A stretch of DNA of 64,000 bases from Dehalococcoidia bacterium (lineage in GTDB: Bacteria; Chloroflexota; Dehalococcoidia; Bin125): assembly GCA_965221065.1 (NCBI GenBank), contig OZ244861.1, positions 1,613,844-1,677,843 of the forward strand, in the 5' to 3' direction. Positions 2,002 to 34,169 of this stretch are shown piece by piece. The notes under the pieces were generated by a model that was given only the letters and a program-made list of their open reading frames with translations, made no database searches and was not told where the DNA came from. Position 1 is the stretch's first letter. Every line of letters starts with the position of its first letter. The translations under genes and the position numbers were made by a program.

Positions 2002-2060
2002 CTGGACACCTTCCTTCGTTGTCCATCGAGAGGGAACTGGATGCGAACCAGTCCTCCCAC

Positions 2061-2100
2061 CCCCTCTCCCTGAGCGAGAGGGCCGGGGTGAGGGGCTCGA
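2061..2100. repeat. GC hairpin repeat element (cccctctccctgagcgagagggccggggtgagggg)
   Basis: Same family as 31966, 40141 and 63040. Confidence 0.5.
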
Positions 2101-19628: not shown

Positions 19629-19727
19629 TCAGACTCGAAGGTACCCCGGTGGGCGTCGCGGCGCGGTGGCCGATTCGACCGGCTTCGCTGCCCGACCGGC
19701 AGATTGAAAGTTACGCTTTCACGTTGC

Positions 19728-19755
19728 CATCCCAATTCTTACAATACCTCGAGGA
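19728..19755 (+). promoter_or_regulatory. putative sigma70-like promoter (TTCACG-N16-TACAAT) in AT-rich stretch upstream of the AAA ATPase gene
   Basis: 19.70-19.83 kb is about 45% GC against a 68% background; -10 TACAAT at 19750. Confidence 0.3.
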
Positions 19756-19826
19756 AAATAGGAAATTGGGTTGGCATATTGAAGATGGACCTTTCAATAT
19801 GCACGAAACGCGGCTACGATGGAATC

Positions 19827-21554
19827 ATGATTGAACGGGAGATTGCCCCGCGATTGCGCTCGTTGTTCGAGCAGTATCCGATTGTCACCGTGACCGGACC
19901 TCGACAGTCCGGCAAAACGACGCTGTGTCGGGCGACGTTTCCCGGGCTGTCTTACGCCAACCTGGAGAATCCGGACCTCAGGGAGTTCGCGCAGACCGAT
20001 CCACGCGCATTCCTGGCACAGTACGGCGATGGCGCGATCATTGACGAGATTCAACGCGTCCCGAAGTTGCTGTCCTACCTGCAGGGCATCGTCGACGAGC
20101 ATGGCGGCAACAGCCTGTTCGTGCTTACCGGCAGCGAGCAGTTCCCGCTCTCGGACGCCGTAAGCCAATCGCTGGCTGGACGCACGGCGCTGCTGAGGTT
20201 GTTGCCATTCTCCCTGGCTGAGCGACGGCGGATCGGCGGAAGTGCGGAGATAGACGAGATGATCTTCTCGGGCTTCTACCCGCGAATCCTCGATCATGGT
20301 CTTGAACCGCGCCAGGCGCTTGGCGACTACTTCGAAACCTACGTGGAACGGGACGTTCGTGGTCTTGGAGGAGTGCGAGACCTCACGTCGTTCGGTCGTT
20401 TCATGCGCCTGTGCGCCGGGCGAGTCGGGCAACTCGTCAACCTGAGCTCTCTGGGGTCCGAGGCTGGCATCAGTCACCCGACGGTCCGAGAGTGGCTCGC
20501 GATTCTGGAGCGAAGCTACATCGTGTTTCAGCTCCAGCCGTACCACGCAAACATCGGCAAGCGACTGACGAAATCGCCCAAGCTGTACCTCTATGACGTC
20601 GGACTGGCCAGCTATCTGCTCGGCATTGAGAACGCCCAGCAAGTGGCGACCCATCCACTGCGGGGACAACTCTTTGAGAATCTCGTCATCGCGGAGACGA
20701 TCAAGCACCGCTTCAATCAGGGCCGCGATTCGAGAGACCTCTCCTTCTTTCGGGACGCAAATGGCTTGGAGTGTGATCTGCTCTATCCGACAGGATCGAG
20801 CAGCGCCGCGATAGAGGTCAAATCCGGATCGACGATCTCCTCCGACTCCTTCTCTTCGCTCAATCGAGTCGCAGCGCAGCTATCCAATCTGAACCATAAG
20901 GCGGTCGTGTATGGCGGCGATGCACGGCAATCGCGAAGCGACATTGATGTTCTGCCGCTGTCCGATCTCGTCGGTGCCCTGACGAAGATTGAGGTTGAGG
21001 AGAGCGTCGGAGCGTTCATCGACGAGCACCGATCGCCAGGGCCGGAACCAGACGCCGTCGCGACGTTCGATGCAGTGTTTCAGACGCAAGTCCGCCCAGC
21101 GATCGAGGCGCTCAGGCCAGCCTGCAAGCCGCTCGGCGATGCTCTGTTTCAGCGCTTCTCCGAACAATCTCAGGTCAGTTCCGGCACGCCCGGCGTTCAA
21201 GGCCAAGGCATACTAGACCCAGATCGATGGGACGCAATCAAGAATGACTACATCGTTGACCAGGCATTTCAGTTGAGCGACGAACGTCCAGTAGAAATCC
21301 AACACGAGTTCTGCTTCCGTGGCTATGTCGGCCGCGGAACAAGAGACTTTGACATCAGAACTGTCGCATCCTGGGTTCTTGACGCACAGAAGGTCTCCAT
21401 CGATTTCTCAGTCGACGGGACATCGGTCACGCGCTTGAAGGACGAAGTGAACTACACGGAGGTGGAGTCCCGCCGGCCGGACTCCGATCGGCTGGTGGCC
21501 GAAGTCACCAGGTCGCTGATGGACCGGATTCGAACGCTGTCCAAGCGAGCTTGA
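19827..21554 (+). CDS. AAA+ ATPase of the AAA_14/DUF4143 family with about 180-aa C-terminal extension
   Basis: Canonical MIER...VTGPRQSGKTTL N-terminus; DUF4143 region; unique C-terminal domain. Confidence 0.8.
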   Translation: MIEREIAPRLRSLFEQYPIVTVTGPRQSGKTTLCRATFPGLSYANLENPDLREFAQTDPRAFLAQYGDGAIIDEIQRVPKLLSYLQGIVDEHGGNSLFVLTGSEQFPLSDAVSQSLAGRTALLRLLPFSLAERRRIGGSAEIDEMIFSGFYPRILDHGLEPRQALGDYFETYVERDVRGLGGVRDLTSFGRFMRLCAGRVGQLVNLSSLGSEAGISHPTVREWLAILERSYIVFQLQPYHANIGKRLTKSPKLYLYDVGLASYLLGIENAQQVATHPLRGQLFENLVIAETIKHRFNQGRDSRDLSFFRDANGLECDLLYPTGSSSAAIEVKSGSTISSDSFSSLNRVAAQLSNLNHKAVVYGGDARQSRSDIDVLPLSDLVGALTKIEVEESVGAFIDEHRSPGPEPDAVATFDAVFQTQVRPAIEALRPACKPLGDALFQRFSEQSQVSSGTPGVQGQGILDPDRWDAIKNDYIVDQAFQLSDERPVEIQHEFCFRGYVGRGTRDFDIRTVASWVLDAQKVSIDFSVDGTSVTRLKDEVNYTEVESRRPDSDRLVAEVTRSLMDRIRTLSKRA

Positions 21555-31886: not shown

Positions 31887-31965
31887 CCTCACCGCGTCGT
31901 CCTCCGAGCCTACGCGCTCCACCCACGGCCGGAGACCGGTCCTCCAACCGCCGGCACGGTTCGGC

Positions 31966-32010
31966 TCCTACAGTCCCCTCTCCCTCTGGGAGAGGGCTAG
32001 GGTGAGGGTC
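31966..32010. repeat. GC hairpin repeat element (cccctctccctctgggagagggctagggtgaggg)
   Basis: Member of the dispersed CCCTCTCC...GGAGAGGG-GGGTGAGGG family. Confidence 0.5.
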
Positions 32011-32081
32011 CCCCAACGCAACATTCCGCGCACCACCCGTTAGCTACTCTGAACCAAGGACCCTACCGAGAGACCAAGACC

Positions 32082-32402
32082 ATGGCCCCCATTCCTCTGG
32101 TCGCCGAACGATCCAAAGAGATCGCCGACCTCTGCCGCAAACACCAGGTCCAGCGGCTCGACCTCTTCGGCTCCGCCGCCACCGGCCACTTCGACCCCAA
32201 CTCCAGCAACCTCGACTTCCCCGTCATCTTCCGCCCGGAAGCCAGCGCCATGTACGTCGGCCTCTGCGACCTTCTCTACACCAATCTCCACTGCATCCTC
32301 AATCGCCCCATCGACCCGGCAATCGAAACCGACTTCAACAATCCCTACTTCCGAGACGCCGCCAACGAATCCAGGACCCCCGTCTACGTCGCGTGGAGCT
32401 GA
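32082..32402 (+). CDS. MntA-like minimal nucleotidyltransferase (type VII TA antitoxin-like)
   Basis: LFGSAATGHFDPNSSNLDF matches the GS..RG....SD.D NTase core, with Asn in the first Asp position; 106 aa. Confidence 0.65.
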   Translation: MAPIPLVAERSKEIADLCRKHQVQRLDLFGSAATGHFDPNSSNLDFPVIFRPEASAMYVGLCDLLYTNLHCILNRPIDPAIETDFNNPYFRDAANESRTPVYVAWS

Positions 32403-32609
32403 GGGCTATCTCGAAGGCTTGCTCGATACCGCCGCCTCCAAGGGCCTCACCATGCGCGGCGACGCACTACAAACATGACATGCATATCCAACTCTGCGAT
32501 CCGCCGACACGCAACTCGCCTTCCCCCGTCGGGCCCTTCGTCGGGTACCATGGGGTCCTGGCTGAAAGCAAAACTAACCTAGGACATCCAGAATTCGCGA
32601 GCAGCAGCA

Positions 32610-33347
32610 ATGGACGAAAATGACCTCCACCGAATATGGGGCGCTGGGGCCATACGGGTCTTCATTAGCCACACCCATCCGAACCAAGCTAAAGCCGCAA
32701 GGCTCCAAACGGCCCTGAGGCGTCTCGGGATAGCATCTTTTGTAGCACACAATGACATCGAACTAACAAGGCAATGGGAAGTCGAGATCATATTCGCGCT
32801 GCAGAGTATGCATGTCCTGGCAGCACTCCTCACACCCGACTTCAAGAGCAGCGACTGGACAGAGCAAGAAGTCGGGGCCGCTGTTGGTCGCGACATTCCA
32901 GTGTTTGCTATTGATATGGGTCTGGTTCCTTACGGATTCATGAAGAGATACCAAGCGATTCCAGGGGCAGTAGGAGAACGAGGAGGGGCCACTAAGGTCG
33001 CCAATGTGATTGCCGAGGCAATCAAGCGGAACGACCGCTTAGAACCTCACCCTGTGAACGGGTACATCGCAAAGTTGCAGAGTGCAGGCAGCTACAGGCA
33101 GACCGATCAGTTGGCATCAGAGTGGAACTGGAATAGCAAACTCACAGATCAACAAGTACAGCAGATCCTCGCAGCATACAATACCAACAATCAAGTATCT
33201 GGTGCTGGATCGTTTGACGACATCATACTCAGACTGATGTACGAGAGCACCGGCGTGCAGCACCATATCCAACACGTGGGAGGGCGTAAGCGACAATGCG
33301 AGCCTGTACAAGATGGTGAGGCCAGCCGAAGACCACGCGACCGATAG
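32610..33347 (+). CDS. TIR-domain protein (TIR_2/DUF1863-like) with unknown about 130-aa C-terminal region
   Basis: IRVFISHTHP...SDWTEQEV (conserved W..E catalytic-Glu context); gene about 50% GC against a 68% background. Confidence 0.7.
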   Translation: MDENDLHRIWGAGAIRVFISHTHPNQAKAARLQTALRRLGIASFVAHNDIELTRQWEVEIIFALQSMHVLAALLTPDFKSSDWTEQEVGAAVGRDIPVFAIDMGLVPYGFMKRYQAIPGAVGERGGATKVANVIAEAIKRNDRLEPHPVNGYIAKLQSAGSYRQTDQLASEWNWNSKLTDQQVQQILAAYNTNNQVSGAGSFDDIILRLMYESTGVQHHIQHVGGRKRQCEPVQDGEASRRPRDR

Positions 33348-33425
33348 CATGTGCAGCGCAAGCGATACTCCGCCAATCTCAGAGATTGTTCACGGTGTAC
33401 GCTTCACCGCAGTTAGTGGCTTGGA

Positions 33426-34169
33426 TTAGCGCTCCAGTAAACCCGACCCCACATCCCACAACACCACCCTCCCATCCACCGCCGACGCCAACCCCCTCGA
33501 CCCCTCCAGATCCCGCCCCGCCCCCGACACCAACACAACAAACTCAGCATCCTCCGGCACCCCCTTCCGACCCCCCTCCGCCGACACCAACACTCGCGCC
33601 GCTAGCTCCGGCGTCACCTCATCCCCAATCGCCGCCCCTGCGATCTGCGCCACGATCTCCGGCCGATGCACCGACCGCTCATCCAGCGGCCGACCCAGCA
33701 CCCCCGCCCCGATCACCGCGGCCACTACGTCAACCCGCTCGGGGATGATCGGCTCGTGCAGGGCCGGCGCTTTGAACGGCCGACCCCGCGAGCCGTCCGC
33801 CTCAACCCCCACCAGGCTGGCCAGCCCCGCATCGACCGCCTGACGCGGCCACGCCGGGTCCACCGCCAGTACCCGCTCGCGGTCCCCCCGGCCCGACCCG
33901 ACCACGGCCGAGGACAGCCCGCGCGAGCGGATGTCGTCCAGCGCCCCGGCCCTGAAGGCGTCGTCCCGGCCAATCGCCAGAGGCAGCGTCCGGCCCTCCC
34001 GCGGGATAGTCATCCTCGTCGTCGTCGTCAGGACCGTCAGGCCCTCACCGCCAGCCGCTTCCCACTCGGCCGCCAGCGCGAACAGCACCGTCGTCTTGCC
34101 CCCGCCGCCGACCGTCGCGAAGACCGCCGGACGCGTAATCCCCAACGCCTCGTGCAACGGCAGATCCAC
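33426..34169 (-). CDS. yqeC: YqeC-family selenium-dependent molybdenum-hydroxylase accessory protein
   Basis: AVFATVGGGGKTT P-loop; family normally paired with MocA/MobA. Confidence 0.65.
   Translation of the reverse strand: MDLPLHEALGITRPAVFATVGGGGKTTVLFALAAEWEAAGGEGLTVLTTTTRMTIPREGRTLPLAIGRDDAFRAGALDDIRSRGLSSAVVGSGRGDRERVLAVDPAWPRQAVDAGLASLVGVEADGSRGRPFKAPALHEPIIPERVDVVAAVIGAGVLGRPLDERSVHRPEIVAQIAGAAIGDEVTPELAARVLVSAEGGRKGVPEDAEFVVLVSGAGRDLEGSRGLASAVDGRVVLWDVGSGLLER

What the first reader, a model, noticed from the sequence alone, without database searches (positions are those of the whole stretch)
32040..33400. Low-GC islet: MntA-like minimal nucleotidyltransferase followed by a TIR-domain protein, with no HepT
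A 1.3-kb segment at about 50% GC against a 68% background carries a 106-aa MntA-type NTase. Its NTase motif is GS..TG....SNLD, with Asn where the first catalytic Asp normally sits. In the position where type VII TA loci carry the HepT/DUF86 toxin there is instead a 245-aa protein whose N-terminus is a TIR domain (VFISHTH...SDWTEQEV) plus an uncharacterised C-terminal region. No HepT/DUF86 toxin could be identified between the NTase and the TIR gene, and neither short ORF there (32393..32623, 32401..32476) looks like a protein family. TIR domains are NAD+-consuming effectors in Thoeris, CBASS and other antiphage systems, and MntA enzymes nucleotidylate their partners. An NTase-TIR two-gene module is not a described architecture and could be a novel TA/abortive-infection system, or a HepT locus whose toxin was replaced.
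Basis: partly seen in the sequence, partly recalled or inferred. Interest (0 to 1): 0.8.

Follow-up and report, generated by a model that had tools for sequence, protein, structure and literature searches.

The report
TIR gene displaced a HepT toxin
This is an old MntA/HepT toxin-antitoxin locus whose toxin gene was overwritten by a horizontally acquired, stand-alone TIR-domain (probable anti-phage) gene, leaving a decaying orphan antitoxin; it is not a new two-gene NTase-TIR system.

Summary
Both ORFs are real: a 106-aa MntA-like NTase (32082..32402) and a 245-aa TIR protein (32610..33347). Only the TIR gene and its upstream spacer are low-GC; the NTase has host-like codon composition. At the same chromosomal site, related genomes carry a conventional NTase-HepT pair. 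The window still holds about 16 codons of the hepT 5' end, in the syntenic position and frame, with its start codon mutated. So hepT was displaced by a ~1-kb TIR cassette. The window's NTase is decaying: D43N at the catalytic Asp (0 of 85 homologues), four more changes at near-invariant positions, a lost stop codon and branch omega ~0.7. Among seven TIR-bearing lineages the NTase is intact in three, degenerate in three and absent in one, while the TIR gene stays under purifying selection. Among the 80 best-matching loci of the wider TIR family, only 3 have this NTase type nearby, two with their own HepT. Instead 33 of 79 lie inside type I R-M operons, mostly hsdM-hsdS-TIR-hsdR. The "toxin replaced" reading is supported; the "novel NTase-TIR module" reading is not. 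The TIR protein is probably an autonomous NAD+-processing defence effector, which is inferred, not shown.

The parts
32082..32402 (+). Orphan, degenerating MntA-like minimal nucleotidyltransferase. It is the former antitoxin of a type VII MntA/HepT pair.
   Evidence: Pfam NTP_transf_2 27.1 bits; PADLOC PDC-S09 1.8e-22; NCBIfam MntA equivalog only 18.7 bits against a cut-off of 60. GC3 is 0.85, like the host. Changes at near-invariant positions: D43N (0/85), L47P (1/85), Y62C (0/85), L79P (0/85), V80A (0/85), and stop TAG->TGG adding 2 codons. Window-branch dN/dS is about 0.7, against 0.12-0.25 for other pairs.
32386..32478 (+). hepT 5' remnant. The former start codon is ATG->ACG at 32386-32388. 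Recognisable homology runs to about 32433, and the first in-frame stop is at 32476-32478. It overlaps the NTase 3' end exactly as an intact hepT start does.
   Evidence: tblastn of L008 HepT residues 2-16 against window 32389..32433 gives 9/15 identity. The DNA alignment is in register with L007, L008 and L009. Shuffle test on the part beyond the NTase stop: 1 of 1000.
32434..33425 (+). Approximately 1-kb low-GC replacement tract that displaced hepT codons ~17-114. It holds the TIR gene with its own 5' leader and 78-nt 3' tail. The left edge is approximate; the right edge abuts the yqeC stop.
   Evidence: GC is 0.51-0.57 in 300-nt windows, against 0.654 for the whole window. Identity to L001 falls from 93-95% in the flanks to 17-85% between about 32230 and 33470. 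Homology to HepT-bearing loci resumes at the yqeC 3' end. No flanking direct repeats and no tRNA were found.
32610..33347 (+). Gene for the 245-aa TIR-domain protein. The TIR domain spans about residues 14-122 (nt ~32649-32975). A HEAT/TPR-like helical domain plus beta-hairpin spans about residues 126-232 (nt ~32985-33305).
33426..34169 (-). yqeC-family gene. It is the conserved right-hand flank that anchors the synteny and is not part of the system.
   Evidence: Pfam YqeC 108.5 bits. It is 96% identical to the L001 orthologue and present at the same position in L001, L005, L007, L008, L009 and L091.

Best explanation
The locus is a degenerate chromosomal type VII (MntA/HepT) toxin-antitoxin site. 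Nearly all of hepT (about codons 17-114) was replaced by a ~1-kb, compositionally foreign cassette carrying one gene. That gene is a short-form member of a widespread TIR-domain family.

Shown:
- The ancestral state of the site was NTase-HepT.
- A hepT 5' remnant persists in the window.
- The site is polymorphic in the lineage, holding an intact HepT, decayed HepT genes, or very divergent TIR alleles.
- The window's NTase has lost its first catalytic Asp and several other near-invariant residues, and it evolves nearly neutrally.
- The TIR gene is under purifying selection and keeps the residue at the catalytic-Glu position.
- Elsewhere the family is usually embedded between hsdS and hsdR of type I R-M operons, not next to NTases.

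Inferred:
- The NTase here is an orphaned, inactive antitoxin with no role in controlling the TIR protein.
- The TIR protein acts alone as an NAD+-cleaving or NAD+-derived-signal-producing defence effector.
- Its C-terminal helical-repeat domain keeps it off until a phage-derived cue or partner is sensed, probably through oligomerisation as in other TIR effectors.
- Divergent TIR alleles are exchanged by homologous recombination, using the conserved NTase and yqeC flanks as arms.
For: - **Synteny:** L008 has NTase plus an intact 114-aa HepT (RX4HXY present) between the same flanks. L007 has a hepT pseudogene with an in-frame stop. L009 has hepT with a 38-aa deletion and R->C.
- **Remnant:** window 32386..32433. 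L095 has a stronger remnant (0/300 shuffles).
- **Composition:** NTase GC3 0.85, TIR GC3 0.565. TIR alleles are low-GC in all relatives and lower than their flanks in 66 of 79 family loci.
- **NTase decay:**. D->E changes at these aspartates abolish HepT adenylylation (PMC7641770).
- **NTase state in TIR-bearing lineages:** intact in L001, L091 and L094; degenerate in the window, L005 (57 codons left) and L095; absent in L006.
- **TIR selection:** omega 0.06-0.25. dS is saturated (1.4 to >6) for nearly all allele pairs, while the window-L001 flanks have dS 0.08-0.24.
- **Family survey:** the NTase lies within 6 kb in 3 of 80 loci, two with their own HepT. 33 of 79 lie in type I R-M operons, with dominant order hsdM-hsdS-TIR-hsdR. 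One relative carries an AbiJ_NTD3-TIR fusion.
- **Fold and catalytic position:**
Against: - Intact NTases next to TIR genes (L001, L091, L094) are still under purifying selection (omega 0.12-0.17), so they do something in those genomes.
- The NTase and TIR genes are co-directional, 130-210 bp apart, and no terminator was detected between them, so co-transcription is possible.
- The window's NTase remains an uninterrupted ORF.
- No activity, toxicity or defence phenotype has been measured for any member of this TIR family. NADase function is inferred only from the fold and one aligned residue.
- The rest of the ~3.1-Mb genome could not be searched for HepT paralogues.
Confidence: 0.75

Rival explanations
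1. Toxin swap created a working pair. After hepT was displaced, the MntA-like NTase was co-opted to restrain the TIR protein, by nucleotidylation or by binding, giving a new NTase-TIR TA or abortive-infection module. The window copy would then be either a non-catalytic binder or a decayed instance.
For: - The arrangement NTase - short spacer - TIR, co-directional, occurs in at least 6 lineages at this site.
- NTases in L001, L091 and L094 keep GSX11DXD and show omega 0.12-0.17.
- No terminator was detected between the genes.
Against: - All instances share one syntenic site, so they are not independent.
- The TIR gene is intact and under purifying selection where the NTase is catalytically mutated (window), truncated to 57 codons (L005), degenerate (L095) or absent (L006).
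- NTases are equally well kept beside dead HepT genes (L007, L009), so their retention does not need a live neighbouring partner.
- 77 of 80 other family loci lack the NTase.
- MntA is known to act on the Tyr of HepT's RX4HXY motif (PMC7641770), and the TIR protein is structurally unrelated to HepT.
- NTase alleles do not co-cluster with TIR presence. L094's NTase is closest to that of HepT-bearing L008.
Confidence: 0.08
2. The NTase persists because it still serves in trans, for example by neutralising HepT paralogues elsewhere in the genome or by acting as a DNA-binding autoregulator whose promoter now also drives the TIR gene. It would have no biochemical interaction with the TIR protein.
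For: - Purifying selection on intact NTases persists whether the neighbour is TIR, a dead HepT or a live HepT.
- HEPN/MNT modules are described as highly abundant and often multi-copy (PMC7641770 abstract).
- The co-directional layout has no detected terminator between the genes.
Against: - In the window the NTase carries D43N plus four other changes at near-invariant positions, with branch omega ~0.7, so catalytic trans-neutralisation is unlikely here.
- No other HepT was found in the 64-kb window.
- No promoter-like site was detected, though that scan is weak for this organism.
Confidence: 0.12
3. The TIR protein is not an immune effector. It would be a housekeeping or signalling enzyme of the flavodoxin-like TIR / nucleoside 2-deoxyribosyltransferase-like class, or an inert scaffold, and its position is incidental.
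For: - Weak sub-threshold Pfam hits of relatives to Nuc_deoxyrib_tr (17-18 bits).
- Foldseek also lists nucleoside 2-deoxyribosyltransferases.
- The window copy lacks the N-terminal domain and R-M context typical of the family, and its neighbours are metabolic genes.
Against: - 33 of 79 relatives are embedded in type I R-M operons.
- One relative carries an AbiJ_NTD3 fusion.
- L017 sits in a defence island.
- The gene has lower GC than its flanks in 66 of 79 loci.
- Presence is patchy, with deeply divergent alleles at one site.
- Together these are hallmarks of mobile defence genes. The best structural matches are NADase-type TIR domains, and the Glu is conserved.
Confidence: 0.05

Closest known systems
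Type VII toxin-antitoxin system HepT/MntA (HEPN/MNT; Shewanella oneidensis SO_3166/SO_3165; PMC7641770)
   Same: The NTase is a ~100-aa PF01909 MNT protein. Its closest homologues (66-74% identity) sit immediately upstream of, and overlap by 11 nt, a PF01934 HepT carrying RX4HXY at the same chromosomal site (L008). The window keeps the first ~16 codons of that hepT.
   Different: There is no HepT toxin in the window. The NTase's first catalytic Asp is Asn, and four other near-invariant residues are changed. The NCBIfam MntA equivalog score is 18.7 bits against a cut-off of 60. As it stands, the locus is a relic, not a working type VII pair.
Bacterial TIR-domain NADase defence effectors (Thoeris ThsB, TIR-SAVED of CBASS, Pycsar TIR, SPARTA TIR-APAZ, AbTir/BtpA)
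   Same: It has a TIR_2 domain and fold. A Glu is conserved at the position of the catalytic Glu. The family sits in defence contexts and has an HGT-like composition.
   Different: Matches to ThsB, SAVED-TIR and RT-TIR models cover the TIR domain only (12-34 bits). There is no ThsA, cyclase, SAVED, Argonaute or RT partner nearby. The C-terminal HEAT/TPR-like domain with its N-x-N-x-Q motif matches no named system.
Second-line effectors embedded in type I R-M operons (PrrC/RloC paradigm; PMC3710099)
   Same: In 33 of 79 surveyed relatives the TIR gene lies inside an hsd operon, mostly between hsdS and hsdR, the position PrrC occupies in EcoprrI. One relative has an AbiJ_NTD3-TIR architecture, of the kind listed in that paper.
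   Different: The effector domain is TIR, not an ABC-ATPase-HEPN anticodon nuclease. The window's copy is a short form that lacks the ~130-aa N-terminal domain, and it is not in an R-M operon. No guard-type regulation has been shown for this family.

Membership tests
Type VII TA system (MntA/HepT) | Small MNT-fold nucleotidyltransferase (PF01909) | tested here: met
   NTP_transf_2 scores 27.1 bits against a cut-off of 21. There are 85 homologues at 35-74% identity.
Type VII TA system (MntA/HepT) | Intact GSX10DXD catalytic motif in the antitoxin (PMC7641770) | tested here: not met
   The window has G30-S31-x11-N43-L-D45. Position 43 is Asp in 84 of 85 homologues and Glu in one. The D39E/D41E double substitution abolishes adenylylation in S. 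oneidensis MntA.
Type VII TA system (MntA/HepT) | Adjacent HepT (PF01934) toxin with RX4HXY motif | tested here: not met
   Only a ~16-codon 5' remnant remains, and its start codon is lost. No HepT was found elsewhere in the window. The syntenic locus L008 has the intact gene.
Type VII TA system (MntA/HepT) | NCBIfam MntA_antitoxin equivalog score above cut-off | tested here: not met
   18.7 bits against a cut-off of 60.
Type VII TA system (MntA/HepT) | Adenylylation of the partner and neutralisation of its toxicity | not testable with these tools
   This needs biochemical and toxicity assays.
TIR-domain proteins (Pfam TIR_2) | Profile match above the gathering threshold | tested here: met
   48.6 bits against a cut-off of 28, residues 17-93.
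TIR-domain proteins (Pfam TIR_2) | Flavodoxin-like TIR fold | tested here: met
   The model has pLDDT 89.7. The top Foldseek PDB hits are TIR domains, with probability 0.99-1.00 and E down to 6.6e-5.
TIR NADase effectors | Conserved catalytic Glu after the W of the alpha-C motif | tested here: met
   W83 and E87 are invariant in 29 family members. The family profile aligns 'SkWtDqE' with 'SSWCLDE' of RPP1 and RPPT-TIR. That this Glu is the catalytic one rests on my own knowledge of plant and SARM1 TIR domains.
TIR NADase effectors | NAD+ cleavage activity | not testable with these tools
   This needs an enzyme assay.
Thoeris | ThsB-type TIR protein together with a ThsA (SIR2/Macro-SLOG) effector gene | tested here: not met
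   ThsB models hit the TIR domain only, at 12-20 bits. The neighbours are an alpha/beta-hydrolase, YqeC and a MobA-like NTP_transf_3 protein.
CBASS / Pycsar | cGAS/DncV-like or pyrimidine cyclase next to the TIR effector; a SAVED or nucleotide-sensor domain on the effector | tested here: not met
   The NTase is a 106-aa MNT that matches only PDC-S09 models in PADLOC. The effector's C-terminal domain is an alpha-solenoid, not SAVED. The CAP12-PCTIR_TIR match is 12.7 bits against a cut-off of 24.7.
R-M-embedded accessory effectors (PrrC-like arrangement) | Gene located inside a type I hsdMSR operon | tested here: not met
   This is not the case in the window. It holds for 33 of 79 family relatives, 24 of them directly adjacent to an hsd gene.
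Proposed NTase-TIR two-gene module | Adjacency conserved in independent genomic contexts | tested here: not met
   The adjacency occurs only at the one syntenic site. Elsewhere the NTase lies within 6 kb in 3 of 80 loci, two with their own HepT.

The most novel reading that the evidence does not exclude
In the lineages where the NTase is still intact (L001, L091, L094), toxin replacement at a type VII TA locus has produced a working MntA-TIR pair, in which the minimal nucleotidyltransferase nucleotidylates or sequesters a TIR NADase. The window would hold a decayed copy of that pair. This would be the first example of an MNT antitoxin re-targeted to a non-HEPN toxin.
Probability: 0.08. Interest if true: 0.7.

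Novelty: new member of a known kind. Interest (0 to 1): 0.3.

Why it matters
The apparent new defence architecture turns out to be a juxtaposition produced by gene displacement, so it should not be catalogued as an NTase-TIR system. Two things of modest value remain.

First, the site gives a clean, well-resolved view of how a chromosomal TA locus turns over. Related genomes show a live HepT, three kinds of dead HepT, or very divergent TIR alleles, and the orphaned antitoxin is decaying at different rates.

Second, the work points to an uncharacterised and widespread TIR family: at least 550 loci across many phyla, built as a TIR domain plus a HEAT-like domain. It usually sits between hsdS and hsdR of type I R-M operons, and about a fifth of members end in an SSB-like acidic '[DE]x[IVL]PF' tail. 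That family, rather than this locus, would be the worthwhile experimental target.

Tried and rejected
- **P0006 as a fusion:** the 342-aa protein listed with TIR_2 plus NTP_transf_2 first looked like Rosetta-stone evidence for an NTase-TIR link. Reading the sequence showed 57 NTase codons, a ~40-residue non-homologous linker, then the complete TIR ORF. It is a deletion read-through.
- **Mobile-element signatures:** no flanking direct or inverted repeats of note and no tRNA genes.
- **Transcription signals:** no sigma-70-type promoters or intrinsic terminators in 31900..33500. This scan is weak for this organism.
- **Exact-sequence look-up of the window TIR protein:** it returned nothing, although P0001 is identical. 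The nearest family hits are Chloroflexota/Dehalococcoidia MAGs.
- **afdb50 fold search:** the library was unavailable.
- **Literature:** searches for MntA-TIR, for TIR in type I R-M operons and for TIR with an SSB-like tail found no description of this family or pairing.
- **hepT remnants in L001, L091 and L094:** beyond codon 7 they are not individually significant. Only the window and L095 remnants are relied on.
Full report
**1. Observation**

The two ORFs exist as described: 32082..32402 (+, 106 aa) and 32610..33347 (+, 245 aa).
- The first ORF matches Pfam NTP_transf_2 (27.1 bits, cut-off 21) and the PADLOC candidate family PDC-S09 (E 1.8e-22). It reaches only 18.7 bits against the NCBIfam MntA equivalog, whose cut-off is 60.
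- The second ORF matches TIR_2 (48.6 bits, cut-off 28, residues 17-93).
- The 76-aa ORF between them matches nothing.

The composition claim needs correcting. The window averages 65.4% GC. The NTase gene is 62.3% GC with GC3 0.85, the same as its neighbours (0.83-0.85). Only the spacer (59.9%) and the TIR gene (53.4%, GC3 0.565) are deviant. The foreign tract is therefore about 1 kb and excludes the NTase.

**2. What was at this site before**

Homologue searches and contig look-ups recovered a set of related genomes with the same gene order. Various upstream genes are followed by the NTase, a variable gene X, yqeC on the minus strand, a MobA-like NTP_transf_3 gene, ORFs of 103, ~95 and 148 aa, and an aminotransferase.

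The variable position X differs between genomes:
- **L008:** X is an intact 114-aa HepT (PF01934, 52 bits). Its start overlaps the NTase stop by 11 nt, and it carries RX4HXY ('RNILNHQY').
- **L007:** the same gene has an in-frame stop.
- **L009:** the gene has a 38-residue internal deletion, and the motif Arg is replaced by Cys.
- **The window, L001/L002, L005, L091, L094 and L095:** X is a TIR gene.

The ancestral content of the site is therefore a conventional type VII MntA/HepT pair.

**3. The hepT remnant**

Directly after the window's NTase, and overlapping it just as a real hepT start does, frame 3 reads 'T-SRGAEGYLEGLLDTA...'. This matches 'M-SRRAKGYLHDILETA' of L008 HepT at 9 of 15 positions.

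In the DNA alignment the former ATG is now ACG (32386-32388). The NTase stop has changed from TAG to TGG, which lengthens the NTase by two codons.

I tested the part that lies beyond the NTase stop, so the test is independent of NTase conservation. The stretch 'GYLEGLLDTAASKGLT' at 32404 scores 35 against the HepT N-termini. Only 1 of 1000 shuffles of the spacer reach that score in any of six frames at any position. The real match is also in the syntenic position and frame. L095 has an even clearer remnant, 'GYLYDVLSNA' (0 of 300 shuffles). The remnants in L001, L091 and L094 are too short to be significant on their own.

On the right side, homology to the HepT-bearing loci resumes exactly at the yqeC stop (33426). 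No hepT 3' remnant is left.

**4. State of the NTase**

Against 85 homologues, the window protein differs at positions that are otherwise nearly invariant:
- D43N, where 84 homologues have Asp and 1 has Glu
- L47P (seen in 1 of 85)
- Y62C (0 of 85)
- L79P (0 of 85)
- V80A (0 of 85)
- E95N
- loss of the stop codon

D43 is the first Asp of the GSX10-11DXD motif. In S. oneidensis MntA these aspartates bind Mg2+, and the conservative D39E/D41E double change abolishes HepT adenylylation and weakens neutralisation (PMC7641770).

The window and L001 are close relatives by their flanking genes: 94-100% protein identity, dS 0.08-0.24 and 93-95% nucleotide identity. Yet their NTases are only 71% identical. 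By three-point decomposition, the window branch has dN 0.116 and dS 0.164, so omega is about 0.7. NTase pairs that do not involve the window give 0.12-0.29. This is the signature of relaxed constraint. The excess divergence is concentrated in codons 50-103, next to the replaced tract, so part of it may have arrived by recombination with a diverged allele.

**5. Is NTase-TIR a unit?**

Within the lineage, the NTase next to the TIR gene varies:
- intact with the canonical motif in L001, L091 and L094
- catalytically mutated in the window
- cut to 57 codons and read through a ~40-residue unrelated linker into the TIR ORF in L005; this explains the apparent fusion protein P0006
- degenerate in L095, where the N-terminal half is unrecognisable and the third Asp is lost
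- absent in L006, which has a different genomic context

In all of these the TIR ORF is intact, except for a C-terminal truncation in L094. TIR alleles show omega 0.06-0.25. The TIR gene is therefore maintained without a functional NTase, which an antitoxin-dependent toxin could not be.

The intact NTases are under purifying selection (omega 0.12-0.17). So are those beside dead HepT genes in L007 and L009 (0.21-0.25). Their retention therefore does not point to the neighbour as partner.

Outside the lineage, a scan of GTDB species-representative genomes found at least 550 loci encoding family members in many phyla. An HMM of the NTase family hits within 6 kb of the TIR gene in only 3 of the best 80 loci. 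In two of these (L013, L051) the NTase has its own intact HepT next to it. The third (L017) is a defence island inside a type I R-M operon, with a second HEPN/MNT pair and a SIR2_2 protein.

**6. What the TIR gene is**

A 29-sequence alignment shows an invariant core, including W83 and E87. The AlphaFold model (pLDDT 89.7) has three parts:
- a TIR-type beta/alpha domain (about residues 14-122)
- a helical domain (residues 126-214)
- a beta-hairpin (residues 218-232)

No named defence system matches beyond the TIR domain.

Most relatives are 340-370 aa and carry an extra N-terminal domain of about 130 aa. One subgroup has AbiJ_NTD3 there instead.

In 33 of 79 loci the gene lies inside a type I R-M operon. 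The usual order is hsdM-hsdS-TIR-hsdR, and in 24 loci the gene is directly adjacent to an hsd gene (Pfam-checked). This is the position occupied by PrrC-type second-line effectors (PMC3710099).

The TIR gene has lower GC than its flanks in 66 of 79 loci (median difference -7.5 points) and is never higher by more than 3 points. The window's 'islet' is therefore a family trait of a mobile gene.

**7. Dynamics of the site**

TIR alleles at the one site are 47-73% identical to the window's protein. Their dS is saturated (1.4 to above 6) for nearly all pairs, even between genomes whose flanking genes have dS 0.08-0.24. By yqeC divergence, HepT-bearing L008 is closer to the window (dS 0.70) than TIR-bearing L091 is (1.09). 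L094's NTase is closest to L008's.

TIR-bearing genomes therefore do not form a clade. The site behaves as a polymorphic hotspot where old, divergent alleles are exchanged, presumably by homologous recombination in the conserved flanks, or are acquired repeatedly. That last step is inference.

**8. Mechanism proposed**

Shown: displacement of hepT, decay of the NTase, and conservation and fold of the TIR protein.

Inferred:
- The TIR protein works alone as an NAD+-consuming or signal-generating effector.
- It is held inactive by, or activated through, its helical-repeat domain.
- The NTase has no role in controlling it in the window.

The rival that the NTase was co-opted as a TIR antitoxin keeps a probability of about 0.08, because intact NTases persist in three lineages. 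A trans-acting or regulatory role for the intact NTases is about 0.12.

**9. Novelty and score**

The components are known kinds: a relic of a type VII TA pair and a TIR-domain defence-type protein. The specific TIR family appears to be undescribed in the literature I could search. However, it belongs to the known class of R-M-embedded and AbiJ-NTD-linked effectors.

The flagged 'new architecture' is not a functional unit, so interest is 0.3. That score rests mainly on the clean example of TA-locus turnover and on the pointer to the R-M-embedded TIR family with SSB-like tails.

Noticed in passing
L011-L090 (TIR-family loci); e.g. L031:2834-6654, L060:2154-5107, L083:3695-6657: In 33 of 79 loci the TIR-family gene is embedded in a type I R-M operon. 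The dominant order is hsdM-hsdS-TIR-hsdR, and 24 are directly adjacent to an hsd gene. This is a PrrC-like position for a TIR effector, and I found no description of it in the literature.
   Followed up: partly
C-termini of P0008, P0015, P0016, P0022, P0023, P0032, P0035, P0037, P0039; L017:3886-4668; L083:5560-6657: 15 of 79 family members end in an acidic '[DE]x[IVL]PF' tail (DIPF, EIPF, DVPF). This resembles the C-terminal tip of bacterial SSB, which is my own knowledge. It could be a mimic or bait for SSB-interacting proteins. The window protein lacks it, and L001 ends in 'SVIPC'.
   Followed up: partly
window 19704..21554 (+): A second low-GC stretch (0.545-0.578) encodes a 616-aa AAA_14 + DUF4143 ATPase with a C-terminal extension of about 240 residues that has no Pfam match. 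It is wedged between a membrane/EEP-like protein gene and an ABC transporter gene, and may be another horizontally acquired gene.
   Followed up: partly
window 32465..32491 (+, frame of the 32393 ORF): A second, frame-shifted HepT-like stretch, 'HYKHDMHIQ', resembles L007 HepT 'GYLHDIHQT' (score 28; 15 of 500 shuffles reach it). It may be a small duplication of the hepT 5' end, or it may be chance.
   Followed up: partly
window 31966..32010 and 2043..2094; L001:2659-2714; L095:~330-400: A G+C-rich palindromic element (…CCCTCTCCCTCTGGGAGAGGGCTAGGGTGAGGG…) lies just upstream of the NTase, and a second copy about 80% identical lies at 2043..2094. A ~170-nt insertion with a similar hairpin (CTCCCCCTTGCAGGGGGAG) separates the NTase from the hepT remnant in L095. 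This looks like a dispersed REP/MITE-like repeat.
   Followed up: no
L007:4305-4649, L009:4266-4535: The hepT toxin at this site is inactivated in different ways in different genomes: an in-frame stop in L007, and a 38-aa deletion plus Arg->Cys in RX4H in L009. In both, the NTase stays intact under purifying selection.
   Followed up: yes
L017:1-7693: This is a defence island inside a Caldilineaceae type I R-M operon. The order is HsdM, an MNT of the window's subfamily with no HepT detected, an NTase_sub_bind (HEPN) plus MNT pair, the TIR-family gene (ending DEDIPF), HsdS, then a 597-aa SIR2_2 protein.
   Followed up: partly
L094:635-1219: The TIR allele closest to the window's (73% identity) is truncated at 194 aa by a stop right after the conserved 'AYNTND' motif. 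It loses the last helix and the beta-hairpin, so it may be a TIR pseudogene in that lineage.
   Followed up: no
L011-L090: Across phyla the TIR-family gene has lower GC than its flanks in 66 of 79 loci (median -7.5 points) and is never higher by more than 3 points. The low-GC 'islet' is therefore a family-wide property and not special to this window.
   Followed up: yes
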